From Armatimonadota bacterium (lineage in GTDB: Bacteria; Armatimonadota; DTGP01; JAKQQT01), in contig DASXUL010000039.1 in the NCBI GenBank assembly GCA_036504855.1, positions 15,582-79,581 of the forward strand: DNA of 64,000 nucleotides. The letters are read 5' to 3'. Position 1 is the stretch's first letter; each line of letters begins with the position of its first letter. This document shows positions 5,509 to 45,155 of the stretch, piece by piece. A model generated the notes under the pieces. That model was not told where the DNA came from and ran no database searches. It was given only the letters and a program-made list of their open reading frames with translations. The position numbers and the translations under genes are program-made.

Positions 5509-5513
5509 ACGAG

Positions 5514-5658
5514 TAGCTGTCAGCTATCAGCTATCAGCGATCAGCTATCAGCGATCAGCCGAACACCCCGCCCATGAGGAAACCATCCTCACGGGCGGGG
5601 TGTTCGGCTGAATGCTGAATGCTGAATGCTGAATGCTGAATGCTGATAGCTGACAGCT
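5514..5658. repeat. Intergenic palindromic element A. It has perfect 17-bp terminal inverted repeats, inner 7-bp tandem units (CAGCTAT/CAGCGAT on the left, GCTGAAT x4 on the right) and a central 15-bp-stem hairpin
   Basis: agctgtcagctatcagc (5514-5530) is the exact reverse complement of gctgatagctgacagct (5642-5658). The central stem ccgaacaccccgccc / gggcggggtgttcgg spans 5559-5607. The element lies between convergent genes, and the MFS stop codon (cta at 5657-5659) sits inside the right terminal repeat. Confidence 0.7.
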
Positions 5659-6868
5659 ATTCCCTCAGCGTTCCCAGGTTGCGGAGTTCGGGCCAGAGGC
5701 AGGCCACGGCGGCGACCACCAGGATGCTGCCCACGCCGCCCGCCACCACGGAGGCGACAGGGCCGAAGAGCTGGGCCACGGCGCCGCTCTCGAAGCCGCC
5801 GAGCTGGTTGCTGGCGCCGACGAAGAGGCTGTTTACCGCGCTCACCCGGCCGCGCAGATGGTCCGGCGTCCGTAACTGCACCAGTGACTGCCGCACGATG
5901 ACGCTGATGTTGTCCACGGCGCCCAGCAGGAAGAGCATCGACATCGAGAGCCAGAACGAACGCGAGAGGCCGAAAACCACGGTGACGACGCCAAACCCGG
6001 CCACGGCGAGGATCAGGGTGCGTCCTGCCCGGCGCATCGGAGGCCGGTGGGCCACCGAAACCGCCATCAGGGCCGCGCCCACGCTGGGGGCGGCCCGGAG
6101 CCAGCCCAACCCGCTGGGACCAACGTGCAGGATGTCTTTCGCGTAGATCGGCAGCAGGGTTGCGGCGCCCCCCAGCAGGACCGCGAACATATCCAGCGTT
6201 ATCGAGGCCAGAATGATGCGCGTCTGCAGAACGAAGCGCAAACCGGCCAGCAGCGTGCGCCAGTTCACTTCCTCGCGCTTTCGAGCGGCGGCCACGGTTC
6301 GAAGCGCCCACACGAAACCGAAGTGCCACAGCGCGAAGGCGGCGGCCACCCAGTAAACCGGCGCGGCCGCCTTCGCCACCCCGATGAGCAGCCCGCCGAG
6401 CGCCGGGCCCGCCACGCTGCCGATCTGGAAGATGCTGCTGTTCCAGGTGACGGCGTTGCTGAAATCGCGCTCCGGCACGAGTTGGGGCAGCAAGGAGGAC
6501 ACAGCCGGGTTACGGATGGCCCTCGACGTGGCGCCCACGAAGAGAAGGGCATAGTAGGCGGCCACAGGGCCGTGGGCGTGGGAGATCGCCGCCAGCGCCA
6601 GGGAGCAGAGCACGGCTATGGCCTGGGTGAACAGCACGATGCGACGGCGGTCGAACCGGTCCGCGGCATGTCCGGCCGGGAAGGTGAGAAGGAGGACCGG
6701 GAGGATTTCAACGAGTCCCACCAGGCCGAGGGCCATGGCGGAATGCGTTCGCTCGTAGAGCTCCCAACCCACGGCGACATCCTGCGCTTGCATCCCGATG
6801 ATGGAGAGGATATTGCCCGTGGCATAGCGCCGGAAATTCGCGTGGCGCAACGCTGAGTACGGGTCCAT
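5657..6868 (-). CDS. MFS transporter (enterobactin-exporter EntS-like family)
   Basis: A 403-aa polytopic membrane protein. The N-terminus LRHANFRRYATGNILSIIGMQAQDVAVGWELYERT and the overall pattern of 12 transmembrane segments are typical of the MFS superfamily. Confidence 0.85.
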   Translation of the reverse strand: MDPYSALRHANFRRYATGNILSIIGMQAQDVAVGWELYERTHSAMALGLVGLVEILPVLLLTFPAGHAADRFDRRRIVLFTQAIAVLCSLALAAISHAHGPVAAYYALLFVGATSRAIRNPAVSSLLPQLVPERDFSNAVTWNSSIFQIGSVAGPALGGLLIGVAKAAAPVYWVAAAFALWHFGFVWALRTVAAARKREEVNWRTLLAGLRFVLQTRIILASITLDMFAVLLGGAATLLPIYAKDILHVGPSGLGWLRAAPSVGAALMAVSVAHRPPMRRAGRTLILAVAGFGVVTVVFGLSRSFWLSMSMLFLLGAVDNISVIVRQSLVQLRTPDHLRGRVSAVNSLFVGASNQLGGFESGAVAQLFGPVASVVAGGVGSILVVAAVACLWPELRNLGTLRE

Positions 6869-6883
6869 AGGTGCAGTATGTCG

Positions 6884-7036
6884 TTATGAGTCATCAGTCG
6901 TCAGTCGTCAGTCGTCAGTCGTCAGTCCGGATGCCGTCTGCCGCCGAGAACGCCTCAATCACCGTTCTGGGCATTCGGGCTGATGACTGACGACTGACGA
7001 CTCATGACCGACGACTCATGACCGACGACTGATGGC
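6884..7036. repeat. Intergenic palindromic element B. It consists of a tandem GTCAGTC/GTCATCA 7-mer array, a unique core and an inverted CGACTGA/TGACGAC array
   Basis: gtcatcagtcgtcagtcgtcagtcgtcagtcgtcagtccgg ... gggctgatgactgacgactgacgactcatgaccgacgactcatgaccgacgactgatgg. The right arm extends over the last six codons and the TGA stop of the DUF309 gene (7016-7036). Confidence 0.7.
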
Positions 7037-7363
7037 TATCCCATCCGGCGGGAGGGCCTGCGGAGCCGTTGCCAGCCATGCGCGGATGGGCGGGAGGCAC
7101 AGGCCTTCGTCATCGGCGGGATCGGCGGATTCGAGGTGGGCGAGGGCTCGGGCCCAGAGGACGCGGGCGCCGTACAGGTTGCCGCGAGAGGCGTGGTAAC
7201 AGCCGACGGCGAGCTGTATCAGGCCCTGCATGGTGTGGCTGCGGGTGAGGCGCCAGCGCGGTTCGAGCGCGTCGTGGGCGGCATGATACTCGCCCGCCTG
7301 GAAGAGGTTGAGGAAGAGCGCCACGTCTGGTTCTACGCTTGCCTGGGTTATGTCTTTGGGCAT
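7016..7363 (-). CDS. DUF309-family small protein (115 aa)
   Basis: The C-terminal 115 aa of a 393-aa ORF. The segment starting MPKDITQ contains FLNLFQAGEYHAAHDALEPRW, which is the DUF309 signature (FNxGxYxEAHExLExxW). The start was chosen at the ATG at 7363, and the upstream part of the long ORF was rejected as non-coding. Confidence 0.5.
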   Translation of the reverse strand: MPKDITQASVEPDVALFLNLFQAGEYHAAHDALEPRWRLTRSHTMQGLIQLAVGCYHASRGNLYGARVLWARALAHLESADPADDEGLCLPPIRAWLATAPQALPPDGIAISRRS

Positions 7364-8076: not shown

Positions 8077-8142
8077 CGAGGGGCCCTCGGGCTCTCGTTT
8101 TCCAAACAGGGAAGCGAGAGCCCGAGGGCCCCTCGTTTCTCC
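8077..8142 (+). terminator. Rho-independent-type terminator hairpin with a perfect 21-bp stem plus a T-rich tail, located between convergent genes
   Basis: cgaggggccctcgggctctcg (8077-8097) pairs with cgagagcccgagggcccctcg (8115-8135) and is followed by tttctcc. Confidence 0.6.
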
Positions 8143-10037: not shown

Positions 10038-10121
10038 TTTCGGTCTTTCCTCCTTTATGTGATCGGAGCCGGCAGCCGCCGCTTGCCGCCTGCCGCGTGG
10101 GGCGGCGCTGAGACGCGGGAA

Positions 10122-10250
10122 ACCACAGAGACATAAGGGCGCAAAGGGCGGATGAAAGGGATCGATTGGGGGGAATGCCGGGCCCAACACGATCCACCTC
10201 CCCATCTATACCCCTTTCATCCGCCCTTTGCGCCCTTGTTTCTCTGTGGT
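10122..10250. repeat. Long inverted repeat with about 39-bp arms (36/39 identical) separated by a 50-nt loop. It lies upstream of the S53 peptidase gene
   Basis: accacagagacataagggcgcaaagggcggatgaaaggg (10122-10160) matches the reverse complement of cccctttcatccgccctttgcgcccttgtttctctgtggt (10211-10250). The right arm overlaps the last codons of ORF 10217..10669. Confidence 0.6.
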
Positions 10251-10669
10251 TGCTCCGCCAGGCCTTCCAGCCACCGGCGGAAGGCGTAACGCGCCGCCGG
10301 GCGAGCCAGGGCGGCGAGGCCGGGGATGGGAAATCGGGTCCAAACCTGCAGGCGCGCTTCGCACCCGCCGGATGGCGTTGGCGTTAGCAGCAGACGGCCG
10401 CGCTGCGCTACGCCTAACGAGGCGCTTACCGAAAGCCAGACGACCGCGGAGGGGCTCCACGCCTTGACGAAAGTCATGCGCAGCCCTAGAGGCAGGAACA
10501 CGCGATAGCGCACCCATCCGTCACCGCGCGCCAGCACATCCACGCGGCGGACGAATGGGATGAGTTCCGGCTCCAACTCTACGCGCGAGACCAGAGCCGC
10601 CGCCAAGGCGGGCGGCGCCGGATTGCGGGCGCTCACGCACAGGATGAGGCATTTCGATCGGTCAGCCAT
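10217..10669 (-). CDS. Hypothetical protein (150 aa), possibly SRPBCC-like
   Basis: It is the only sizeable ORF between the peptidase gene and the divergent downstream gene, with no recognisable catalytic motif. Its 3' end is embedded in the arm of the long inverted repeat. Confidence 0.35.
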   Translation of the reverse strand: MADRSKCLILCVSARNPAPPALAAALVSRVELEPELIPFVRRVDVLARGDGWVRYRVFLPLGLRMTFVKAWSPSAVVWLSVSASLGVAQRGRLLLTPTPSGGCEARLQVWTRFPIPGLAALARPAARYAFRRWLEGLAEQPQRNKGAKGG

Positions 10670-10786: not shown

Positions 10787-11044
10787 ATGTTACGCATGAA
10801 CGCGGGCACGCGCCCATGCGGGGAGGGTTATCCGATGAAGCCCGCATTGTACGGCTGGAAGGACATGCTGCATGACTACACGCAGCTCCTTCTGAACGAC
10901 CGCTGGTATTGGTGCCGCCACTGCCGTCGTCCCGTTGAACACGTGCAGATCCCGCCTCCGGGCAGCCCCCCGGACGCGACCTCCCTAACGTGCCTCGATT
11001 GCGGCTACGCCGACCCGGAATTCCTGCACCTCCCTCGGATGTAA
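10787..11044 (+). CDS. Small zinc-ribbon protein (CxxC...CxxC), hypothetical
   Basis: An 85-aa ORF containing CRHCRRP ... CLDCGY. A start at the internal MKPALYGW is also possible. Confidence 0.4.
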   Translation: MLRMNAGTRPCGEGYPMKPALYGWKDMLHDYTQLLLNDRWYWCRHCRRPVEHVQIPPPGSPPDATSLTCLDCGYADPEFLHLPRM

Positions 11045-11163
11045 GCTGTCAGCCGTCAGCTGTCAGCCGTCAGCCCAGAGGGTCCGCCTGTGCAGACGCC
11101 GCGCTCTCTTGGGTCAGCCTTCCGGCTGATGACTGATGACTGAAGGCTGACGACTGACTACTG
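11045..11163. repeat. Intergenic palindromic element C, a compound of 7-mer arrays (GCTGTCA/GCCGTCA) plus a D/E-like unit
   Basis: gctgtcagccgtcagctgtcagccgtcagcc ... ggtcagccttccggctgatgactgatgactgaaggctgacgactgactac, located immediately after the stop codon of the preceding gene. Confidence 0.65.
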
Positions 11164-11237
11164 CCTCAGTGCTCTGTTCGGGTGGTTCTGTGAGTTGGTC
11201 GCGTCCGTAGGAAGCACCTTCTGTGTGTGAAAGGCTG

Positions 11238-11335
11238 GCGGGCAGGGCAAGCCCAGCCCCTACCAGGTCGGGGTCTCCATCCACCCATCGGTGGACGGCC
11301 GGGCCTACCGGGTCGGGGCTGGGCTTGCCCTGCCC
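11238..11335 (-). terminator. Large GC-rich hairpin (perfect 21-bp stem, 54-nt loop with an inner palindrome) downstream of the pilin operon
   Basis: gggcagggcaagcccagcccc (11240-11260) pairs with ggggctgggcttgccctgccc (11315-11335), and the loop contains tccacccatcggtgga. It lies 59 nt beyond the 3' end of the PilX-like gene. Confidence 0.5.
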
Positions 11336-19913: not shown

Positions 19914-19923
19914 CCACACTCAC

Positions 19924-19988
19924 CACAAAGGCACAAAGGCGCGAAGACCGGATCTTGTTTCGGTCTTCGCGCCTTTGCGCCTTTGTGG
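19924..19988. terminator. Bidirectional terminator hairpin between convergent genes
   Basis: cacaaaggcgcgaagaccg / gatcttgtt / cggtcttcgcgcctttgtg form a perfect stem of at least 17 bp. Confidence 0.65.
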
Positions 19989-20001
19989 TAAGTTCGCCGA
20001 G

Positions 20002-25683: not shown

Positions 25684-25830
25684 ATCACGCTCCTTTGGCG
25701 GGCCAAGGTAAGGGCGGGGCCATTCCGCTCAACACGCCGACATGGAGCGCGGCGGCTTGCCCCCGCTTTCGCTCGGTCCACCCCCGCCCAAAGCGGCGGC
25801 AAGCCGCCGCATTCCATATCGGTTGCCGCG

Positions 25831-27861
25831 TTAGCTCAGCATCACCTGGCCGCCGGTCACCGGCAGGGCCTGGCCGGTTTCGTAGGCCTGGTCCATCAGA
25901 TAGTAAACGGCTTTCATCACGTCGGCCACTGTGCAGCCTCGGCCCATGGGCACTTTGCTCTCGTACGCGCGCTTCACATCCTCAACGGTGTTTGCGCCCG
26001 GGACCTTGCCCGTGCGCAGGTATTGCGCGAACAGGCCGTTAGCGGGGTCCGACCACAGCGGCCCATCGAAGAAGTTGCCGGGGCAGATGGCGTTCACCTT
26101 CACCCCGTCATCCACCAACTCCAGGGCGAAGCTCTGCGTGAGGCCCACTCCGCCGAACTTCCCGCCCGCATACGCGGCGTTTCGATTGCTGCCCACGAGG
26201 CCGGACTTGCTGTTGATCTGAATGATGTCCGCCCACGCGTCCGGCTTGGCCATGTGCTGCACGGCCATCGCCGGGGCCGCCGCCTGCACTCCGTTGAAGT
26301 AGCCAACGTAGTTAACGCGCGTTACGAGTTCGAACTCGGCCTGCGGCTGCGTCTTCACGCTGCCCGCCCGGAGCACGCCGGCATTGGAGATGAGCAGGTC
26401 CAGCCCGCCGTAGACGCGCACCACGGCATGGATGGCGTCCTTGAGGGAGTCACCGGAGGTAACGTCCACGCCGATTCCGATGGCTCGGCCCGGGCCGCGT
26501 TCCTCGCAGAGCTTCGATGCGAGGGCGCAGGCGCCATCCGCGTTCACATCCAGCAGCGCAACGTGCGCGCCCTCGCGGGCGAGGTCCTCGGCAATCCCGG
26601 CTCCGAACCCTTGCGCCGCGCCGGTGACCACCGCAACCTTGCCCGCAGCGCGGCCGGACGGGCCGCTTCCCGCCGCAACCTGGCGACGGTAGCTCTCCAC
26701 TTCCCAGGCGTCGATAAACTTGCGGTCCCGACGCAGCATGTACCGGATCCCGCCCAGCGCGGCGGCGCCTTCCATCACCCGGATGGCGTCGAGGTAGACC
26801 TGCCGGACGGTGTCCGCCGCGGCATAGGAGTCGCCTGCCGCGAAGAGCCCGAGGCCGCGAACCAGGATGACCTTCGGCGGGAAGCCCGTGGCGCGTCCGT
26901 GTTCGGCCACGGAAGTCCGCAGGCGCTCCAGATGCTCGGAGGCGCCCTCACCGGGCGCCGGGTCGAACCACAAGGGGAACGATTTGCAGTAGACGATCTG
27001 ATCCGGCGTCAGCGCGCCGCCAGAGGCAAGGACGTTGCCGTCAATGGCGCCGGCCAGGCTCAACGCCGTGGGTGAATCGTCGAACGTCACCACCTTCAGC
27101 GCGTCGCCCTTCGAGAGCAGACCCCGCAGGGCCGGCGCGAGCACATCGATCAGCCGCCGCGCGGTTCCGCCGGGCACGCGCGATCCCGCCCCGAACCCCT
27201 TCGGGGCCCCGAGCCGCTTTGAGATTGCGTTCAGGATGCGGTCGGTGGCGGCGCGGACTTCATCCGGCGTCTCCCCGCCCACGATGAGGCCGTGGTTGGC
27301 CATGAGGATCGCGTCCGGCCCCGTGCGCCCGGTCCGCGCCGTGTACTCCGCCAGAAGACGTTGCGCCATCGCCGCCAGCGTATAGCCGGGGTCCACGTAT
27401 GGAACCCAGAGGACATCGTCGCCAAAGAGATCGGCGGCGATGGCCTCGCCGTTCACGCAACAGGTCAGCGCGTTCGCCAGGGTGGCGTGGCTGTGGACCA
27501 CAAAGCGCGACGGCAGCAGGTGGTGCAGCGCCGCTTCCACCGATGGTCTCTGCCCCTTCTCGGGATGGATGCGGGCCGCCATCACGGCATCCTTGAAGAC
27601 CCGCTCCCGCTCATTTGGGTCCGCGGGCGGCTCGGCGGCGAGCAGCGCCGAGAGCGCCGCGCGGTCCATCTCCACAAAGCCGTCCTCATCCACGCTCGCC
27701 AGCGCGCAGCCGCTCGCCTTCACGAAGAGACGGTCGGCCGTCTTCAGGGAGGTGTTGCCGCCGCCGGCCAGCACGATATCGGGGCGCGACCCGTAGTAGC
27801 GGGAGAGCGCAATTAGCTGCGCGAGGGGCGTTTGATCCGAAGTTCCTTCTGGCCAGTTCAT
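25831..27861 (-). CDS. Bifunctional class II aldolase/adducin-domain plus short-chain dehydrogenase protein (RhaEW-like rhamnulose-1-phosphate aldolase / lactaldehyde dehydrogenase)
   Basis: About 676 aa. The N-terminal half is an aldolase fold. The C-terminal half is an SDR with GKVAVVTGAAQGFGAGIA and YAGGKFGGVGLTQSFA (the YxxxK motif). The first ATG is at 27861, since the track start at 27864 is a TTG. Confidence 0.8.
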   Translation of the reverse strand: MNWPEGTSDQTPLAQLIALSRYYGSRPDIVLAGGGNTSLKTADRLFVKASGCALASVDEDGFVEMDRAALSALLAAEPPADPNERERVFKDAVMAARIHPEKGQRPSVEAALHHLLPSRFVVHSHATLANALTCCVNGEAIAADLFGDDVLWVPYVDPGYTLAAMAQRLLAEYTARTGRTGPDAILMANHGLIVGGETPDEVRAATDRILNAISKRLGAPKGFGAGSRVPGGTARRLIDVLAPALRGLLSKGDALKVVTFDDSPTALSLAGAIDGNVLASGGALTPDQIVYCKSFPLWFDPAPGEGASEHLERLRTSVAEHGRATGFPPKVILVRGLGLFAAGDSYAAADTVRQVYLDAIRVMEGAAALGGIRYMLRRDRKFIDAWEVESYRRQVAAGSGPSGRAAGKVAVVTGAAQGFGAGIAEDLAREGAHVALLDVNADGACALASKLCEERGPGRAIGIGVDVTSGDSLKDAIHAVVRVYGGLDLLISNAGVLRAGSVKTQPQAEFELVTRVNYVGYFNGVQAAAPAMAVQHMAKPDAWADIIQINSKSGLVGSNRNAAYAGGKFGGVGLTQSFALELVDDGVKVNAICPGNFFDGPLWSDPANGLFAQYLRTGKVPGANTVEDVKRAYESKVPMGRGCTVADVMKAVYYLMDQAYETGQALPVTGGQVMLS

Positions 27862-27880
27862 CAACTTGTTGCGTCCATGC

Positions 27881-29008
27881 TCATAATCCTAGGATTTCGC
27901 GCCCCAACAGCGCCCAGCGGGTGATATCCGGGTCCGCGTTGAAGCCGGGTTCACCGGCGAGAACGGCGCGCTGGTGGGCGGCCAGAACGCATGCGCCTTC
28001 CTCGAAGATCCCGCGGATCGGATCGGGCAGCGGCTCGCGGCCGATGCAGGCTGGGCGCAGCGGGATCATCTCCCGCGTGTTGTGCTCGGTTCCGCCAGTT
28101 ACGATGAAGCCCGCATCTCGCAAGGCGGGAACGTACTCCTCCAGCACGAGGCGGCGGTTGCGCACTGGGATGAACTCCACGGCCCCGATATCCCAACGAT
28201 GGAGCCGCTCAGTCAACCCTTCAACCGGCGCCTCGAACGGGCAGATGGGGCTGGCGCCGTCCGCCAGCACCGGGTAGCACGGGATGCCCCTCATCGCCAG
28301 GACCAGCGCGCGGGCCTCCTCGAAGGAGACGAACCGTTCCTCCACGAAGGCCGGCCGCCCGGCCTTCATCAGATGCGTGCGGATGTCGTTTTGCACCGCC
28401 GCCGCGTCGTCTGGCGCCTTCGGCTCTGCTCCAAGAATCGCGTGCAGCGCTCCGGCCCGGGCGCCAGGCTCGGTAGAGGCGAACAGCGCTTCCTGAAACG
28501 CCTGCGCCACGTGGCGCTCCTGAAGGGTAACCGTATCGCGCGGGCAGCCGTGCCGGGTCACGACGCCGTCAACAATTGCCCCGTCGGTCAGGCCGGTGGG
28601 GAATCCCGCCGTCGTGAACACGGACTCCATGCGCGACACCATCGCGGAGATGCGGCGCGCGTCGCCCTCGCGGATGCCATTCAGCACGCGCGCCGGCTCC
28701 GGCTCGAAAGCGGCGGCGGGGGCGATTCCCTTCCCGCAGACGTAGACCTTGCCGGGGTTGCCGGGGTCGTTCAGCTTCACGCCATCGGCCGCCAGCCGCT
28801 CATCCCGCGCCACGATCTCCATCCCGAACAGCGGGAAGATGCCGGCGCGTTCGGCCCGTTCTGCAAATTCCGCGTAAACGGAGTAATCGTAGTAGTTGCT
28901 GGCCCCGAGCGCGCGGATGCCCTGTTCGGCCGCCAGGCGTACCGCCTGTTCCACGGAATCGAACGCCGAAAAGTTCGGCGGAAGGTGAATGTGGCTGTTT
29001 GAAGTCAT
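27881..29008 (-). CDS. PHP-domain (polymerase/histidinol-phosphatase-like) metal-dependent phosphoesterase
   Basis: The N-terminus SHIHLPPNFSAFDS matches the HxH...D PHP motif. The start codon lies inside the first unit of repeat D and has no Shine-Dalgarno sequence. Confidence 0.6.
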   Translation of the reverse strand: MTSNSHIHLPPNFSAFDSVEQAVRLAAEQGIRALGASNYYDYSVYAEFAERAERAGIFPLFGMEIVARDERLAADGVKLNDPGNPGKVYVCGKGIAPAAAFEPEPARVLNGIREGDARRISAMVSRMESVFTTAGFPTGLTDGAIVDGVVTRHGCPRDTVTLQERHVAQAFQEALFASTEPGARAGALHAILGAEPKAPDDAAAVQNDIRTHLMKAGRPAFVEERFVSFEEARALVLAMRGIPCYPVLADGASPICPFEAPVEGLTERLHRWDIGAVEFIPVRNRRLVLEEYVPALRDAGFIVTGGTEHNTREMIPLRPACIGREPLPDPIRGIFEEGACVLAAHQRAVLAGEPGFNADPDITRWALLGREILGL

Positions 29009-29073
29009 CAGTAATCAGTCGTCAGTCGTCAGTTGTCAGTTCGGACTCAGAACTGATGACTGACGACTGACAA
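29004..29073. repeat. Intra-operon palindromic element D of the 7-mer family (GTCATCA/GTCGTCA ... TGACGAC/TGATGAC)
   Basis: gtcatcagtaatcagtcgtcagtcgtcagttgtcagttcggactcagaactgatgactgacgactgacaac fills the entire 65-bp gap between the E2 stop and the PHP start. Confidence 0.65.
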
Positions 29074-30276
29074 CTACTTCTCCAGCATTTCCTTGAGTCG
29101 GGCCATGAAGCGGGCGGCGAGGAGGCCGTCGATGAGGCGGTGGTCGGCGGAGAGGGTGAGCGTCATCCGATGGCCGGCGCGGATGGCGCCGTCCTTCACG
29201 ACGATGTCCTCGCGAACGGCGCCCACGGCCAGGATGGCGGCTTCCGGCGGGTTGATGATCGCCGAGAACTCCTCAACGCCGAACATGCCGAGGTTGGTGA
29301 TGGTGAACGTGGCCTCGCCGGCGCCCTCCAGCCTGCCGGCGCGGGCGGCCTCCACAATGCGGCGCGTTTCGGCGGCGATGCCCTTCAGGTTTCGGCTGTC
29401 CGCGCCCCTCAGAACCGGCACGGTGAGCCCCTCATCCGTTCCCACGGCGATGCCGATATTCGCCTCGCGGAACGTGACGACGTCATCGCCGTCCACGCGG
29501 CCCCGGAACGCGGGGAACTCGGTAAGGAGGCGGGCACAGGCGTATGTGATGACGTCGTTCAGGCTGCACGGATACACCGCCTTCTCGGCGCGGTAGAACG
29601 CCATCAGCGGCCCCGCGTCGACGGTGAGCTTCACGTAGAAGTGCGGGATGGTCTGCTTGGACGCAACGAGGCCGCGGGCGATGGCCTTCCGCATACGGGT
29701 CATGGGAACGCGCTCGGCCCCCGGCTCCGGCGGTCGCGGGGATCGCGGCTCCGGCTCCGGCTCCGCCGCGGCCTCGTGGACCGCTGCTTCAACATCGGCC
29801 AGCAAGATCCGGCCGCGCGGGCCCGAGCCATGGGCGATGCTCTCCAGGGAAACGCCGCACTGGGCCGCGGCCTTCCGGGCCAGCGGCGAGGCGGCCACGC
29901 GCCCGGACCGCGCGGGTTCCACGGCCGGAGTCCGTTCCCGCGCCGGCGCCTCTCCGGCTACGTTCGGCGCAACGGCCTGCGGCGCTCCGGCGAGGAACGC
30001 GTCCGCCTCGGCGTCCGTCTCGGCCAGAACGCCAACCAGCGATTTCACCGGCAGCGTGACGCCGTCCTTCGCCACGATGCGGGCGAGGCGTCCGGAATCG
30101 GCCGCTTCCACCTCCAGCACGGCCTTGTCCGTTTCCACCTCGAAGAGGATGTCGCCCTTGCGGACCTGGTCCCCCTCGCGGGCCAGCCATCGGACGATGG
30201 TCCCCTCCTCCATGGATTGCCCCGGCTGGGGCATCAGTATCGCCACGGCGCCGCGCGTCTCGGACGGTTGGTTCAT
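29074..30276 (-). CDS. Dihydrolipoamide acyltransferase (E2 component of a 2-oxo acid dehydrogenase complex)
   Basis: A lipoyl domain (EVETDKAVLEVEA), an Ala/Pro-rich linker, an E3-binding domain, and a catalytic domain with DHRLIDG. The start was chosen at MNQPS (30276). The upstream ATG at 30333 would place a palindromic operator-like site in the coding sequence. Confidence 0.8.
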   Translation of the reverse strand: MNQPSETRGAVAILMPQPGQSMEEGTIVRWLAREGDQVRKGDILFEVETDKAVLEVEAADSGRLARIVAKDGVTLPVKSLVGVLAETDAEADAFLAGAPQAVAPNVAGEAPARERTPAVEPARSGRVAASPLARKAAAQCGVSLESIAHGSGPRGRILLADVEAAVHEAAAEPEPEPRSPRPPEPGAERVPMTRMRKAIARGLVASKQTIPHFYVKLTVDAGPLMAFYRAEKAVYPCSLNDVITYACARLLTEFPAFRGRVDGDDVVTFREANIGIAVGTDEGLTVPVLRGADSRNLKGIAAETRRIVEAARAGRLEGAGEATFTITNLGMFGVEEFSAIINPPEAAILAVGAVREDIVVKDGAIRAGHRMTLTLSADHRLIDGLLAARFMARLKEMLEK

Positions 30277-30308
30277 AACGGAAGCCTTTACAAGTTGGTC
30301 GAAGTTTT

Positions 30309-30341
30309 GCACATTATAGACAAACTCTTGCAAGAATGTGC
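30309..30341. promoter_or_regulatory. Candidate operator: a perfect 10-bp palindrome TCTTGCAAGA nested in a 7-bp inverted repeat GCACATT...AATGTGC, in the divergent E2/DeoR control region
   Basis: gcacattatagacaaactcttgcaagaatgtgc. It lies about 30 to 65 nt upstream of the E2 start and about 80 nt upstream of the DeoR-family regulator start. Confidence 0.35.
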
Positions 30342-30347
30342 AGAGAA

Positions 30348-30418
30348 GTCATCAGTTGTCAGTCATCAGTTCTCAGTCCGGACTGACGACTGATGACTGA
30401 TGACTGATGACTGACGAC
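30348..30418. repeat. Palindromic element E of the 7-mer family, centred on cagtccggactg
   Basis: gtcatcagttgtcagtcatcagttctcagtcc | ggactgacgactgatgactgatgactgatgactgacgac. It ends 4 nt before the DeoR ATG. Confidence 0.7.
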
Positions 30419-30422
30419 TCCC

Positions 30423-31208
30423 ATGAGCCTGACCTCCGAACAACGACAGGAAGAGATACTTACGCGCGTGCTGGGTGTGGGGCACGTTGTGGTGAAGGCG
30501 TTGGCCGTGGACATGGGGGTTTCGGAGGCGACGGTGCGGCGCGACCTGCGGGCGCTGGCCGACGCGCGCAAGGTGGAACTGGTGTACGGCGGCGCCACGA
30601 TGCCGCGAACCGCGGACTTCACCGTGCTGGGGCGCGCGCGGCGCAATGTGGAGGCCAAGCGCATTGTGGGACGGCTGGCCGCCGGCCTGGTTCCCGACGG
30701 CGAGATGATGTACGTGGATTCCGGGACCACATGCTTCGAGATGCGCCGCCACCTGATGCAGAAGCGCGGCCTCTCCATCTTGCTGAACTCCACCCGCCTC
30801 GCCATGGAACTGAACGCCGGATCGGACGCCAGCATCGTGCTCCTCGGCGGGCACTACCGGCCTGAGCGCATGGATACCGTGGGCCCGCTGGCGGTGGCGG
30901 CCATCGACCAACTGCGCGGCTACGTGGCCTTCATCGGCGCCGACGGGCTCGACCCGGATTTCGGGGTGACCGCCGACGATATCCAGACCGCGTTCCTCTA
31001 TCAGCACGTGTTAAGGAACGCGCGCGAGACCATTCTGCTGGCGGACCATACCAAATTCCTCTGCCCATCGCTGTATCGCATCTGCACGTGGGACGCCATC
31101 TCCCGCGTGGTCACCGATGTGCGCCCCGACGACGAGTGGGTGGAGTTTCTCAACAAGAACGGCATCGAGCTGATACACGAGATGAACACGGAAGCGCCCG
31201 GCTGCTAG
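30423..31208 (+). CDS. DeoR/GlpR-family transcriptional regulator
   Basis: An N-terminal HTH ([34 protein letters not shown]) and a C-terminal DeoR sugar-phosphate-binding domain. Confidence 0.85.
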
Positions 31209-31231
31209 GCGCCGGCGAACCAGGAAAAACC

Positions 31232-33724
31232 ATGCCCAAATCCCTGATGATCCATCCCACCGATGTCCGCCAGAGCGGATTCGTTGAGTTTTCTCCCATC
31301 CCCATGAACCAGTACGCCGGAACGCTGGCGGAGGAGGCGGCGCGATATGGCGCCGAGGCGCTGGCGCGCATCCACCGCGATATGGCGGTCATCCGCGCGT
31401 TCGAGAGCATGCTCAACGAGGTGAAACTCCAGGGCGCCTACCGGGGCGTGGAGTACAACCACAAGGGCCCGGCGCACCTCAGCATCGGCCAGGAGGCCAG
31501 CGCCGTGGGCCAGGCCTTCCTGCTGGGCGTGGACGACCACATCTTCGGCAGCCACCGCAGCCATGGCGAGATCCTGGCGAAGGGCCTCTCCGCTATCGCC
31601 AAGCTGGATGACGCCGCGCTGATGGGCATCATGGAGTCCTATCTGGATGGGGCCACGTTGCGCGTGGTGGAACGCTCGCGCCCGGATGACCGGGGCATGG
31701 CGGCCAACCCGGTGCAGGCCCTGGCCATCGACTTCCTCCTCTACGGCACGCTGGCCGAGATCTTCGGGCGCGAGGCAGGGTTCAACCGGGGCATGGGCGG
31801 TTCCATGCACGCCTTCTTCACGCCATTCGGCGTCTACCCCAACAACGCTATCGTGGGCGGAAGCGGCGACATCTCGGTGGGCGCCGCGATGTTCAAGCGC
31901 ATCAACCACAAGCCCGGCATCGTCATCTGCAACATCGGCGATTCCTCCGCTGCCTGCGGCCCGGTGTGGGAGGGCCTGGTGCTGGCGAACATGGACCAGT
32001 ACAAGACCCTCTGGGACGAGGCGCATCGGGGCGGCCTGCCGCTGATCATGAACTTCGTTAACAACTTCTATGGCATGGGCGGCCAGCCTGTGGGCGAAAC
32101 CGGCGGCTTCGGCGTGCTGGCGCGCCTGGGCGCCGGACTCTCGCCCACGCAGATGCACGCGGAACGCATCGACGGCTACAACCCGCTGGCCGTGGTGGAC
32201 GCCGTGCGGCGGAAGCGCGACATCATCGAAAGCGGTGACGGCCCGGTCCTGCTGGACACGGTTACCTACCGCTTCAGCGGCCACAGCCCGTCTGACGCAT
32301 CATCCTACCGCGAGAAGTCCGAGGTGGAGGAATGGCAGAGCGTGGACTCGCTGGTGACTTACCGGCGGTCGCTCGAGGAAGCCGGCCTCGCCTCGGAGGC
32401 CGACTTCGAGTGCGTCCAGGAGACCATCAACGCCGCCATCCTCCGCGCCTACAAGAAGGCCATTGACCTGGAGGTCTCGCCGCGCGCCGACCTCTACGCG
32501 GTGGGCAGCCTGCTGGAAACCACCATGCTCAGCAACGTGCGCGTTGAGAGCATGGACCCGACGCGCAAGCCCGAAGTGTTGATGCCGAAGGAGGCCAACC
32601 CGCGCGTTCAGCAGCTTGCCAAGCGCAGCCGCGGCGCGTTTGACGCGGAAGGAAAGCCGCTTCCGAAGAGCAAGTGCATTGGCATCCGTGACGCGCTGTT
32701 CGAGAGCATCCTGGACGCTTTCTACACGGACCCCACGCTGGTTGCCTACGGCGAGGAAAACCGCGATTGGGGCGGCGCTTTCGCCGTCTACCGAGGCCTC
32801 ACCGAGGCGCTTCCCTACCACCGTCTGTTCAACACGCCCATCGCCGAGGGCGCCATTGCCGGCTCCTCCGTCGGTTACGCCCTGGAGGGCGGCCGCGCGC
32901 TGGTGGAGCTGATGTATTGCGACTTCATGGGCCGCGCGGGGGATGAGATCTTCAACCAGATGGCCAAGTGGCAGAGCATGAGCGGCGGCCTGCTGAAAAT
33001 GCCGGTGGTGATGCGCGTCTCCGTGGGCAGCAAGTACGGCGCGCAGCACAGCCAGGATTGGACCAGCATGCCGGCCCATATCCCCGGCCTGAAAGTGGTC
33101 TTCCCCGCGACGCCCTACGACGCCAAGGGCCTGATGAACGCCGCGCTCACCGGTTGCGACCCCGTGATCTTCTTCGAGAGCCAGCGCATCTACGACCAGC
33201 CGGAGCTGTTCCACCCCGGCGGCGTGCCGGCCGGCTACTATGAGATCCCCATCGGCGCGCCAGACGTGAAGAAGCCAGGCTCCGACCTGACCATCCTCAC
33301 CATCGGCGCCGCGCTCTATCGCGCCCTGGAAGCCGCCAAGATCCTGGAGGCTGAGTACGGCATCTCCTGCGAGGTGATCGACGCGCGCAGCATCGTGCCC
33401 TTCGACTATGCGCCCGTGTTGGAGAGCGTGCGGAAGACCCACAAGGTCCTGCTGGTTTCGGACGCCTGCGAGCGCGGCTCGTTCCTGCAGACCATGGCCG
33501 CGAAGATCGGCCAGTTTGCCTTCGACGATCTGGACGCGCCGCCCGTGGTGTTGGGCGCCCGCAACTGGATCACCCCGGCCGACGAAGTGGAAGGCGCCTT
33601 CTTCCCGTTCCCCTGCGATTTCCTGGACGCCGTGCACGAGCATATTCAGCCGCTGCCGGGCTACCAGACGAAGCGGGTCTCCGGCATGGAGGAAATGCTG
33701 CGGAGGAGCCGCCTGGGTATCTGA
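31232..33724 (+). CDS. 2-oxo acid dehydrogenase E1 component with fused alpha and beta subunits (TPP-dependent)
   Basis: A start at 31232 (MPKSLMIHP). The alpha part has GxGxxSxGxxHE-type motifs ([12 protein letters not shown] ... [10 protein letters not shown]) and the TPP-binding [13 protein letters not shown]. The beta part has the transketolase-like C-terminus. Total length is 830 aa. Confidence 0.85.
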
Positions 33725-34173
33725 AGAGGGATCGGGGCCGGCGGAGCGAATCGGGGTCCGGATTCCGGATTCCGGATTCGCGACCATGAGCGGGTGGAGG
33801 ATGTTGGTTGGGAGGAAAGGCCGGGCCCCGAGGGGCCGGCTCGGCGGACCAACGGCGCCTTCGCGCTGTGATGCCGCCGTCCACTCACGTCACCCCGAGC
33901 GAAGCGAGAGGTCTCGGCCTGACGCGTCTTTCCTGGCAACGTTTCAAGCACCCGAGCCGGCGTTTGCCTGGGTGCTTGCTCCGCAGCGCCAAACTGCAGG
34001 CCAGGCCGAGACCTCTCGCTTCGCTCGAGGTGACGTGGAGAGACGCGAGGGCGCGAAGGGCCCTTGGCCTTCCGAGCCGGCCCCTCGGGGCCAGGCTCTA
34101 CCCGCCAACTACTAGCATCCTCGCGCATCCGGTCGCGAATCCGGACTCCGGAATCCGGATCCCGATCCCCTTC
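33725..34173. repeat. Three-layer nested palindromic composite (about 449 bp) that fills the gap between convergent genes
   Basis: Outer inverted repeat: gggatcggg...tccggattccggattccggattcgcgacc (33728-33787) against ggtcgcgaatccggactccggaatccggatcccgatcccc (34126-34170). Middle inverted repeat: gccccgaggggccggctcgg (33828-33847) against ccgagccggcccctcggggc (34072-34091). Inner 153-bp element: 33886-34038. Confidence 0.7.
33886..34038. mobile_element. MITE-like 153-bp palindromic element (copy 1) with 36-bp terminal inverted repeats and a central hairpin
   Basis: Terminal repeats cacgtcaccccgagcgaagcgagaggtctcggcctg / caggccgagacctctcgcttcgctcgaggtgacgtgg. The central stem is agcacccgagcc...tgggtgct. 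It is homologous to 44973..45125. Confidence 0.6.
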
Positions 34174-44934: not shown

Positions 44935-44972
44935 GAACCACCCTCCACCACCAAGAACCTAACCTCTCGCCC

Positions 44973-45125
44973 CACGTCACGTCGAGCGCAGCGAGAGGTC
45001 TCGGCCTGACGGTTCTACGAGAGATGCGTCACAAGCACCCGGGCAAAGGTCTGCATGGGTGCTCCTTACCACGCATCAAGCAAACGGCCAGGCCGAGACC
45101 TCTCGCTGCGCTCGAGGTGACGTGG
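44973..45125. mobile_element. MITE-like 153-bp palindromic element (copy 2), 39 bp upstream of the GIY-YIG gene start
   Basis: Terminal repeats cacgtcacgtcgagcgcagcgagaggtctcggcctg / caggccgagacctctcgctgcgctcgaggtgacgtgg. The central stem is agcacccgggc...atgggtgct. It is the same length as copy 1 and has the same terminal repeats. Confidence 0.65.
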
Positions 45126-45155
45126 GAGGCCACGCTTCCACCATTTCAGCAGCCT

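What the first reader, a model, noticed from the sequence alone, without database searches (positions are those of the whole stretch)
29004..29073. A copy of the 7-mer palindrome lies inside an operon and occupies the whole E2-PHP intercistronic gap
All 65 bp between the E2 stop and the PHP-domain gene start are repeat sequence, and the PHP ATG itself is part of the first GTCATCA unit, so no Shine-Dalgarno sequence is available. In enterobacteria, intra-operon REP/BIME hairpins modulate differential mRNA stability and translation of downstream cistrons. This position suggests a similar role here. The true PHP start may also differ from the one I called.
Basis: inference. Interest (0 to 1): 0.5.

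Follow-up and report, generated by a model that had tools for sequence, protein, structure and literature searches.

The report
Heptamer-repeat hairpin replacing an operon junction
A repeat made of 7-base units folded back on itself has overwritten the short junction between two genes of a conserved sugar-use operon in an uncultured Armatimonadota bacterium; it now supplies one gene's stop codon and the next gene's start codon, and it belongs to a widespread, little-studied class of repeats found in many bacterial phyla and in phages.

Summary
The E2 stop (TAG, 29074-29076) and the PHP-like start (ATG, 29006-29008), both on the minus strand, are 65 nt apart. All 65 nt lie inside one repeat element: tandem TCAGNNN units, a short loop, then inverted NNNCTGA units.

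The RNA hairpin is -47.8 kcal/mol (z = -7.2). There is no Shine-Dalgarno sequence. The ATG is the only viable start.

In relatives the same operon has a 16-nt, SD-less E2-PHP gap and no repeat. Here about 80 nt of element replaces about 79 nt of ancestral junction, removing six conserved C-terminal E2 residues and 11 N-terminal PHP residues.

Opening the PHP start region costs 22-24 kcal/mol. With a ribosome placed on the E2 stop it costs 6-7 kcal/mol. I infer enforced translational coupling plus REP-like 3'-hairpin effects.

The same architecture, with a fixed polarity, occurs in many phyla and between essential phage structural genes, usually about 11 nt after stop codons.

It is a new member of the known heptameric-repeat and REP-like kinds. 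Its function is untested.

The parts
29001..29080 (-). Hairpin-forming palindromic heptamer-array element. On the plus strand: TCAGNNN units 29003-29040, loop 29041-29051, NNNCTGA units 29052-29075. The segment 29000-29079 is what replaces the ancestral junction.
   Evidence: MFE -47.8 kcal/mol, z -7.2. One search aligns it to the orthologous junction.
29074..29076 (-). E2 stop codon TAG, lying in the outermost unit of the element and in the 5' strand of the stem.
29006..29008 (-). PHP-like gene start codon ATG, inside the last CTGATGA unit. In the MFE structure it sits in an 11-nt bulge at the base of the stem.
29015..29017 (-). In-frame TGA three codons upstream of the ATG. It excludes any upstream start.
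29074..30276 (-). E2 dihydrolipoamide acyltransferase gene (400 aa). Its C-terminus is cut short at the element boundary.
27881..29008 (-). PHP-like metal-dependent hydrolase gene (375 aa). Its N-terminus begins 3 residues before the conserved core.
30313..30342 (-). Promoter-like site TGCACA-18-TATAAT upstream of E2. The -10 region (TTTGTCTATAAT) is conserved in relatives.
30347..30419 (.). Sister copy in the DeoR/E2 divergent region, 84% identical to the E2-PHP copy over its full length. The DeoR ATG (30423) lies 3 nt beyond it and has no SD.
5511..5662 (.). Family copy filling a convergent intergenic gap. The minus-strand MFS gene's TAG (5657-5659) lies inside it.
6883..7037 (.). Family copy filling a divergent intergenic gap. 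The MFS gene ATG at 6868 is 18 nt away.
11042..11164 (.). Family copy whose first unit is fused to the TAA stop of a small plus-strand ORF.
33745..34171 (.). Related 427-bp palindrome with (TCCGGAT)n / (GAATCCG)n heptamer ends. It fills the convergent gap between E1 and a GNAT gene.

Best explanation
The sequence is one copy of a family of palindromic heptamer-array repeats that has proliferated in this lineage: (TCAGNNN)n, a loop, then (NNNCTGA)n.

In this Armatimonadota lineage it replaced the compact, SD-less junction of a conserved E2/PHP-like operon. It now provides the E2 stop codon and the PHP start codon.

It is transcribed within the polycistronic mRNA and folds into a stem of about 30 bp, with the UAG and the AUG at the base of that stem.

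Inferred consequence 1: free 30S subunits cannot load at the SD-less, occluded PHP start. A ribosome terminating at the E2 UAG melts the 5' arm and exposes the AUG, so PHP translation stays coupled to E2 translation.

Inferred consequence 2: the hairpin at the 3' end of the E2 cistron can act as REP hairpins do, as a barrier to 3' exonucleases, a processing site or a partial attenuator. That would bias expression toward E2.

Shown: the anatomy, the family, the derived replacement, the energetics and the cross-phylum positional rules. Inferred: every effect on expression.
For: Anatomy and significance.

Start codon: fixed by the in-frame TGA and by invariant N4/H6/H8.

Orthologous loci:
- L247 and L248 (E2 66% identical, PHP-like 56% identical) keep the operon, with a 16-nt gap, no SD and no heptamers.
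- In the alignment the coding flanks are conserved, and 80 nt of element stand in place of 79 nt of ancestral sequence.
- E2 here has 23 residues after its DHR motif. All 118 homologues have at least 27, most commonly 28-29.
- No period-7 arrays occur in about 75 kb of related loci.

Energetics:
- Opening positions -18 to +12 around the PHP AUG costs 22.5-24.0 kcal/mol, the second highest of 15 genes (range 7.2-24.5).
- With a ribosome footprint placed on the E2 stop, the cost falls to 6.4-7.0 kcal/mol.
- Anti-SD pairing is +0.4 kcal/mol, the weakest of the 15.

Transcription signals: no T-run terminator, and no promoter-like site other than the one upstream of E2, in 27500-31500.

Family behaviour:
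- Metagenome hairpins: 0 of 87 inside genes; 59 tandem, 20 convergent, 8 divergent. In tandem pairs the median is 11 nt from the stop and 25 nt to the start.
- Viral contigs: 0 of 148 classifiable elements inside genes; 112 in tandem context; medians 11.5 and 24 nt.
- A true tailed phage carries at least 14 copies between portal, head-morphogenesis, capsid and other genes. The hairpins are therefore compatible with expression of downstream cistrons.

Published analogue: E. coli REP325 acts as both terminator and stabiliser inside an operon (bioRxiv 10.64898/2026.03.23.713779).
Against: - No transcript, ribosome-profiling or reporter data exist for this organism.
- Thermodynamic folds ignore helicases, RNA-binding proteins and co-transcriptional translation.
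- The stop and start are 65 nt apart along the RNA, far beyond classical termination-reinitiation distances. Coupling would therefore have to work through structure unmasking.
- Family copies also fill convergent and divergent gaps, where neither coupling nor 3'-end protection of an operon applies. That is what a merely tolerated element would look like.
- Losing the conserved E2 C-terminal residues looks like damage rather than design.
- Gene calls in the cross-collection statistics come from a crude ORF caller. Its start positions are approximate.
Confidence: 0.5

Rival explanations
1. The element is a neutral or selfish repeat with no regulatory role. On this view a slippage-prone, self-propagating palindromic repeat landed in, or was copied into, the junction. 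It survives only because both ORFs stayed open and PHP is still translated well enough.
For: - Five or six copies occur in 64 kb, in every gene context: convergent, divergent and tandem.
- None occurs in about 75 kb of related loci.
- The arms diverge by independent unit expansions; for example five identical GAATGCT units occur in one arm of the 5511-5662 copy.
- The copy trimmed a residue block conserved in 118 of 118 E2 homologues.
- The E2-PHP and DeoR/E2 copies are 84% identical, which suggests copying.
Against: - The stop and start codons sit precisely at the stem base.
- The family keeps a strict arm polarity: 46 against 6 in genome loci, and at least 120 against 9 in viral contigs.
- It keeps a constant offset of about 11 nt from stop codons in bacteria and phages.
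- At least 14 copies persist in a compact 34-kb phage genome, which is hard to reconcile with pure junk.
- Whether or not it was selected, a -48 kcal/mol stem over a start codon must affect initiation.
Confidence: 0.27
2. The hairpin is mainly a transcription terminator or attenuator, or an RNase III processing site. On this view it physically separates the E2 and PHP messages, and translational coupling is irrelevant.
For: - The lower stem of 22 + 7 bp has the length of an RNase III substrate.
- The family lies immediately downstream of stop codons and is enriched between convergent genes, 23% of classifiable metagenome hairpins.
- E. coli REP325 shows this kind of behaviour.
- Repeated hairpins between phage late genes resemble the RNase III sites of phage T7 (together with my own knowledge of T7).
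Against: - No U-tract follows the stem.
- Strong termination would silence the four or five conserved downstream operon genes and, in the phage, essential structural genes.
- After cleavage PHP would be left with a leader only a few nucleotides long and no SD.
- Whether this organism's RNase III would cleave here was not tested.
Confidence: 0.15
3. The heptad arrays are binding sites for a heptad-reading DNA-binding or RNA-binding protein, or they are phase-variable simple-sequence repeats whose unit number tunes expression. The hairpin would then be secondary.
For: - The CTGA/TCAG core is conserved while three positions vary in each unit.
- A precedent exists in the 7-bp heptads bound by the ribbon-helix-helix protein omega of plasmid pSM19035. 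This rests on my own knowledge and on a title and abstract listed; I did not read the paper.
- A repeat-binding translational regulator has been proposed for TAACTGA repeats (PMC4679880).
- SD-less start codons directly follow NNNCTGA arrays here (PHP and DeoR) and in the phage.
Against: - No candidate protein was identified.
- The copy is identical in the two assemblies that could be compared, so there is no length variation.
- The variable positions of the two arms are complementary in 66.8% of cases, against 40.9% for controls. That points to the hairpin itself.
Confidence: 0.08

Closest known systems
E. coli REP/BIME elements (e.g. REP325 in yjdMN; malE-malF)
   Same: Both are multi-copy, strictly extragenic, imperfect palindromes. 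Both are transcribed inside operons, lie just downstream of stop codons, and occur between tandem and convergent genes. REP has documented roles as a stabiliser and terminator that bias expression toward the upstream gene.
   Different: REPs are unique palindromes of about 35 nt with a family consensus and a conserved tetranucleotide next to the hairpin, and they are mobilised by RAYT transposases (PMC3333891, abstract; the tetranucleotide detail is from my own knowledge). Here the arms are tandem heptamers that vary in number and sequence, no conserved head was found, and no RAYT gene is visible in 64 kb.
TAACTGA heptamer direct repeats of Beggiatoaceae, cyanobacteria and Bacteroidetes (MacGregor 2015, PMC4679880)
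   Same: Both share the 7-nt period and the CTGA core; units such as TTACTGA and CAACTGA occur here. Both are intergenic, and both lie in the 'forward' orientation immediately upstream of start codons that lack an SD.
   Different: Those are almost all direct arrays of one fixed unit (169 direct sets against 1 indirect repeat). Here the arrays are paired, inverted and degenerate at three positions per unit, in a high-GC Armatimonadota genome.
Xanthomonas GGGAATC heptamer repeats in convergent pairs (Rehm et al. 2015, PMC4692102)
   Same: In both, tandem heptamer arrays occur as nearby convergent inverted pairs (70-75 cases per Xanthomonas genome). Both are mostly found between aligned ORFs, within 50 bp of stop or start codons and sometimes overlapping the stop, and under-represented between divergent ORFs.
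   Different: That unit is G-rich and forms G-quadruplexes; the unit here does not. The window also carries a CGGAATC-type pair at 33757 and 34137 that is one base away from the Xanthomonas unit.
Phage T7 intercistronic RNase III hairpins, and translational coupling by structure unmasking (MS2 coat/replicase; E. coli rpmI-rplT) - from my own knowledge
   Same: In these systems a stable intercistronic stem in a polycistronic mRNA sets the fate of the message or makes downstream initiation depend on upstream translation.
   Different: Those stems are unique, evolved sequences rather than members of a repeat family. No cleavage or coupling has been demonstrated here.

Membership tests
REP/BIME (REPIN) elements | Extragenic, multi-copy, imperfect palindrome able to form a stem-loop | tested here: met
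   Five copies in 64 kb, all intergenic. RNA hairpin z = -7.2.
REP/BIME (REPIN) elements | Near-identical copies sharing a family consensus and a conserved tetranucleotide (GTAG-like) next to the hairpin | tested here: not met
   Pairwise identity is 63-84% and is driven by the heptamer periodicity. By my own reading of the ten termini, they read xxAG (GTAG, ATAG, TAAG, GAAG, GGAG and so on) with no fixed head.
REP/BIME (REPIN) elements | A cognate RAYT (Y1/HUH) transposase gene in the genome | not testable with these tools
   Only 64 kb of the genome is available. Pfam scans of 28 window ORFs found no transposase.
Heptameric simple-sequence-repeat arrays (TAACTGA type) | Tandem direct repeats with a 7-nt period, intergenic | tested here: met
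   Tandem Repeats Finder reports period 7, with 5.4 and 3.4 copies in the two arms. Arrays of this type from other genomes are almost always intergenic: 5 of 172 lie inside called genes.
Heptameric simple-sequence-repeat arrays (TAACTGA type) | The unit is TAACTGA | tested here: not met
   Units are YNRCTGA (CGACTGA, TGACTGA, CAACTGA, TTACTGA). Only the CTGA core is shared.
Heptameric simple-sequence-repeat arrays (TAACTGA type) | Forward orientation immediately upstream of start codons lacking an SD | tested here: met
   The PHP ATG lies inside the last unit and the DeoR ATG lies 3 nt after an array. Both give +0.4 kcal/mol anti-SD pairing.
Convergent heptamer pairs (Xanthomonas GGGAATC type) | Two arrays of the same unit on opposite strands, in convergent orientation and close together | tested here: met
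   Arms at 29003-29040 and 29052-29075. The polarity is fixed across collections: 46 against 6, and at least 120 against 9.
Convergent heptamer pairs (Xanthomonas GGGAATC type) | G-rich unit able to form a G-quadruplex | tested here: not met
   The units contain no G runs.
Intrinsic (Rho-independent) terminator | GC-rich stem followed by a U-tract | tested here: not met
   The stem is followed by GACUUCAAACAGCC. The terminator scan found 0 sites in 27500-31500.
MITE (miniature inverted-repeat transposable element) | Terminal inverted repeats plus a target-site duplication, and a related autonomous element | tested here: inconclusive
   The arms are inverted repeats. By my own inspection of the flanks there is no consistent flanking duplication. 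At this locus the element replaces sequence rather than simply inserting. Arrays that flank whole genes (L112, L058) enclose ABC ATPase genes, not transposases.
Known structured RNA families (Rfam 15) | A match at or above the gathering score | tested here: not met
   0 matches in the whole window.

The most novel reading that the evidence does not exclude
Palindromes built from CTGA-core heptads may be a functional class of portable intercistronic 'punctuation' shared by many bacterial phyla and their phages. In this reading the cassette carries TGA stops in all three frames on its exit arm, a stem placed about 11 nt after the upstream stop, and an NNNCUGA leader that supports SD-independent, coupled or factor-assisted initiation. 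Such a cassette could overwrite and re-create operon junctions, as it appears to have done here. The fixed arm polarity would reflect this RNA-level function or an unknown heptad-reading factor.
Probability: 0.12. Interest if true: 0.75.

Novelty: new member of a known kind. Interest (0 to 1): 0.45.

Why it matters
Heptameric repeats are the most over-represented long simple-sequence repeats in many bacterial genomes, and their role is still unexplained.

This locus gives a clean before-and-after comparison. A conserved operon junction was overwritten by such a repeat, which now supplies both a stop and a start codon and removes an otherwise universally conserved E2 tail.

Three further observations turn a vague 'REP-like' idea into hypotheses that reporter fusions or metatranscriptomes could test: the fixed arm polarity, the constant offset from stop codons, and the presence between essential phage genes. 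The hypotheses are structure-gated translational coupling, and 3'-end protection or processing.

It also shows that repeats can remodel the ends of genes, not only the spacers between them.

Tried and rejected
- **Alternative PHP start.** Rejected. An in-frame TGA lies at 29017-29015, and downstream starts would delete the invariant N4/H6/H8.
- **Own promoter or leaderless mRNA for PHP.** By my own reading, the array offers CTGACA-17-GATTAC, but this -10 lacks the final T and ends 2 nt before the ATG. The scan found no promoter-like site there.
- **Canonical terminator.** No U-tract.
- **Known RNA family.** None in Rfam.
- **Synteny through PHP homologues** (P0028, P0009, P0010). Their loci are not syntenic, which first led me to think the E2-PHP adjacency was unique to this lineage. 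The loci of the closest E2 homologue corrected this.
- **Residual E2 tail.** By my own reading of the element in the other frames, it does not encode the missing tail, so this is not a simple insertion.
- **Exact search for this copy's loop in metagenome contigs.** 0 hits, but the source contig itself was not found either, so the negative result is uninformative.
- **Autonomous element.** Arrays 0.9-1.3 kb apart (L112, L058) flank ordinary ABC ATPase genes. Pfam found no transposase in the window.
- **Conserved terminal motif or target-site duplication.** None was convincing.
- **In-situ origin from the ancestral junction.** By my own count from the alignment, identity between the element and the ancestral 79 nt is about 35%, which is the level expected for unrelated sequences.
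Full report
**1. Source and gene map**

The window matches a 66-kb JGI metagenome contig (sample 3300035523). The PHP-like and E2 proteins are also deposited in NCBI as proteins of an Armatimonadota MAG.

On the minus strand the genes run in this order:
- E2 acyltransferase, 30276-29074, 400 aa
- PHP-like protein, 29008-27881, 375 aa
- class II aldolase fused to a short-chain dehydrogenase
- an ADH-like gene
- a URO-D-like gene
- mannitol dehydrogenase

A DeoR regulator (30423-31208) and a fused E1 (31232-33724) are transcribed divergently from E2.

**2. The observation**

The E2 stop TAG is at 29076-29074 and the PHP ATG is at 29008-29006, so the gap is exactly 65 nt.

The gap lies wholly within one repeat element. 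On the plus strand this is AGTCATC AGTAATC AGTCGTC AGTCGTC AGTTGTC AGT, a short loop, then ACTGATG ACTGACG ACTGACA ACT. The element is therefore an inverted pair of tandem heptamer arrays, (TCAGNNN)n and (NNNCTGA)n. It is not a palindromic 7-mer.

Evidence that this is not chance:
- The array pattern matches 22 times in the window, against 0 expected.
- The transcript-sense RNA folds at -47.8 kcal/mol, z = -7.2.

The window contains five such elements:
- 5511-5662, in a convergent gap
- 6883-7037, in a divergent gap
- 11042-11164, directly after a stop codon
- 29001-29080, between tandem genes
- 30347-30419, in a divergent gap

A sixth, related element is a 427-bp palindrome with (TCCGGAT)n ends at 33745-34171, filling the convergent gap between E1 and a GNAT gene. 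Seven of the eleven element ends that can be scored lie within 4 nt of a start or stop codon.

**3. Start codon and Shine-Dalgarno sequence**

An in-frame TGA lies three codons upstream of the ATG. In an alignment with 16 homologues, N4, H6, H8 and the LPPNF motif are invariant, and two homologues start at the same position. The ATG is therefore the only viable start.

The 21 nt upstream give no pairing with a generic anti-SD sequence (+0.4 kcal/mol). This is the weakest value of 15 neighbouring genes and is tied with DeoR, which also directly follows an array. The other 13 genes range from -9.3 to -2.4 kcal/mol.

**4. Comparison with orthologous loci**

Loci found through PHP homologues were not syntenic. 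Loci found through the closest E2 homologue were (P0149, 66% identical; L247 and L248). They show E1 and DeoR divergent from E2, followed by a 365-aa PHP-like gene (56% identical to ours), aldolase-SDR, ADH and mannitol DH. The operon is therefore real and conserved.

In those relatives the E2 TGA and the PHP ATG are 16 nt apart (CACCCCGTAGTACGCC). There is no SD and there are no heptamers.

In the DNA alignment the coding flanks are strongly conserved. Between CTGGAG and AACAnCCACAT the window has 80 nt of element where the relatives have 79 nt. Those 79 nt encode the last six E2 codons (DPARLR plus the stop), the 16-nt spacer, and 14 N-terminal PHP codons, of which the element re-supplies three.

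This agrees with the protein data. The E2 here has 23 residues after its DHR motif, while all 118 other homologues have at least 27, most commonly 28-29. It ends at position 641 of a 647-residue mammalian-type E2.

The element therefore replaced the junction and now supplies both the stop and the start codon.

About 75 kb of related loci contain no period-7 arrays at all.

The E2 promoter-like site (TGCACA-18-TATAAT, 30342-30313) has a -10 region conserved in the relatives. The sister element occupies the half of that intergenic region nearest DeoR. The E2-PHP copy and this sister copy are 84% identical, without gaps and including the loop. This is the closest of all pairs in the window.

**5. 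Energetics**

In the MFE structure the UAG lies in the 5' strand of a lower stem of 22 bp, continued after a small internal loop by a further 7 bp. The AUG lies in an 11-nt bulge at the base of that stem.

Opening positions -18 to +12 around the AUG costs 22.5-24.0 kcal/mol. This is the second highest value of 15 genes, which range from 7.2 to 24.5. When the footprint of a ribosome sitting on the E2 stop is forced to be unpaired, the cost drops to 6.4-7.0 kcal/mol.

No U-tract follows the stem, and no promoter-like site other than the one upstream of E2 is predicted in the region. Rfam has no match.

**6. The family beyond this genome**

- **Taxonomic spread.** (TCAGNNN)4TCAG arrays occur in genomes of Acidobacteriota, Verrucomicrobiota, Planctomycetota, Chloroflexota, Gemmatimonadota, Cyanobacteria, Bacteroidota, Beggiatoaceae and others.
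- **Location.** The arrays are almost always intergenic; 5 of 172 lie inside called genes.
- **Polarity in genome loci.** 36% of arrays have an inverted partner within 400 nt, nearly always in the TCAG...CTGA order (46 against 6).
- **Polarity, controlled test.** The reverse order gave 9 in a complete scan.
- **Arm complementarity.** The variable positions of the two arms are complementary in 66.8% of cases, against 40.9 +/- 1.5% for arms taken from different elements.
- **Metagenome hairpins.** 0 of 87 inside genes; 59 tandem, 20 convergent, 8 divergent. In tandem pairs the median distance is 11 nt from the stop and 25 nt to the start, and six cases fill the whole gap as this one does.
- **Viral contigs.** 168 elements, none inside genes; 112 of the 148 classifiable are in tandem context. 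Median distances are 11.5 and 24 nt. An SD-like motif is present for 11 of 36 starts within 15 nt of the element, against 59 of 102 farther away.
- **A phage example.** A genuine tailed-phage contig (terminase, portal, head morphogenesis, major head protein and tape measure) carries at least 14 copies between co-directional genes. Several are followed by an SD-less ATG 6-11 nt after the last CTGA.

These statistics use a crude ORF caller. Stop positions are exact, but start positions are approximate.

**7. Literature**

- TAACTGA direct repeats lie just upstream of SD-less start codons in Beggiatoaceae, cyanobacteria and Bacteroidetes. A translational role has been proposed but not tested (PMC4679880).
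- GGGAATC heptamers in Xanthomonas form 70-75 convergent inverted pairs per genome. They lie near ORF ends and are rare between divergent ORFs (PMC4692102).
- Heptamer repeats near start codons in Nostoc affect reporter expression (bioRxiv 10.1101/2022.06.06.494920).
- E. coli REP325 acts within an operon both as a terminator and as a stabiliser of the upstream message.
- In the searches I ran, I found no description of palindromes built from CTGA-core heptads in Armatimonadota or across phyla.

**8. Interpretation**

Shown:
- This is a copy of a repeat family that has proliferated in this lineage.
- It overwrote a conserved, compact, SD-less operon junction and trimmed both genes.
- It forms a very stable stem with the stop and start codons at its base.
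- The family has a fixed polarity and a REP-like position after stop codons, and it tolerates essential downstream cistrons.

Inferred:
- PHP initiation is gated by the stem and so depends on ribosomes that terminate at the E2 stop. This preserves the ancestral coupling.
- The stem may also stabilise or delimit the E2 message.

Rival explanations are a tolerated selfish repeat, a terminator or RNase III site, and an array bound by a heptad-reading protein. None can be excluded without expression data.

From my own knowledge, the E2 C-terminal residues form the inter-trimer 'knob', and engineered truncations of them give active trimers. This E2 may therefore not assemble into the usual large core.

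**9. Verdict**

The element is a new member of the known heptameric-repeat and REP-like kinds, and it is of moderate interest.

Noticed in passing
window 29074-29140 (E2 3' end): This E2 is the only one of 119 homologues that lacks the conserved C-terminal [D/N/S/T]PxxLx tail: it has 23 residues after its DHR motif, against at least 27 in all the others. From my own knowledge, that tail is the inter-trimer 'knob' of E2 cores, so this E2 may assemble only as trimers.
   Followed up: partly
window 33745-34171: A 427-bp imperfect palindrome (112-nt arms, 78% complementary) with (TCCGGAT)3 and (GAATCCG)3 heptamer ends fills the whole convergent gap between E1 and a GNAT gene. Its unit, read as CGGAATC, is one base away from the Xanthomonas GGGAATC repeat.
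   Followed up: partly
window 33886-34037 and 44971-45126: A second repeat family. Hairpins with 36-44-nt arms (CACGTCAC..CGAGCGnAGCGAGAGGTCTCGGCCTG) occur twice. One copy is nested inside the 427-bp palindrome.
   Followed up: no
window 25737-25822: Another hairpin with 33-nt arms (88% complementary), of a different sequence type, lies in the 147-nt gap between the aldolase-SDR and ADH genes of the same operon.
   Followed up: no
window 10121-10251, 19918-19993, 11240-11335, 8077-8135: Further long intergenic hairpins. Two of them contain GGCGCAAAGG/CACAAAGG short repeats. Intergenic regions in this genome are generally packed with palindromes.
   Followed up: no
window 30347-30423: The DeoR start codon lies 3 nt beyond a family copy and has no SD. 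In relatives, about 60 nt of ordinary sequence occupies this position. It is unclear where the DeoR promoter now lies.
   Followed up: partly
window 7022-7136: In the ORF downstream of the 6883-7037 copy (an outer-membrane beta-barrel protein), the high-GC3 reading frame runs right up to the element edge. There is no ATG, GTG or TTG in frame before 7136. This suggests either a trimmed 5' end or a non-canonical start.
   Followed up: no
L273/L290/L291 (IMGVR_UViG_3300045936_000120, 34 kb): A tailed-phage genome carries at least 14 (TCAGCNN)n/(NNGCTGA)n hairpins between structural and other genes. In another viral contig (L286), four copies are each followed by the same ACACTGGAGCG sequence, which contains an SD-like GGAG.
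   Followed up: partly
genome, metagenome and viral loci L003-L378: When the two arrays are paired, they almost always occur in the TCAG...CTGA order rather than CTGA...TCAG, even though both orders are palindromic: 46 against 6 in genome loci, and at least 120 against 9 in viral contigs. The reason is unknown.
   Followed up: yes
window 27881-29008: The PHP-like protein belongs to a large uncharacterised family: more than 2,500 hits, mostly named 'hypothetical'. It falls below Pfam's PHP gathering score (23.6 against 26.4 bits). About 100 columns are invariant, including HxH, NDPGNPGK and GTEHNT.
   Followed up: no
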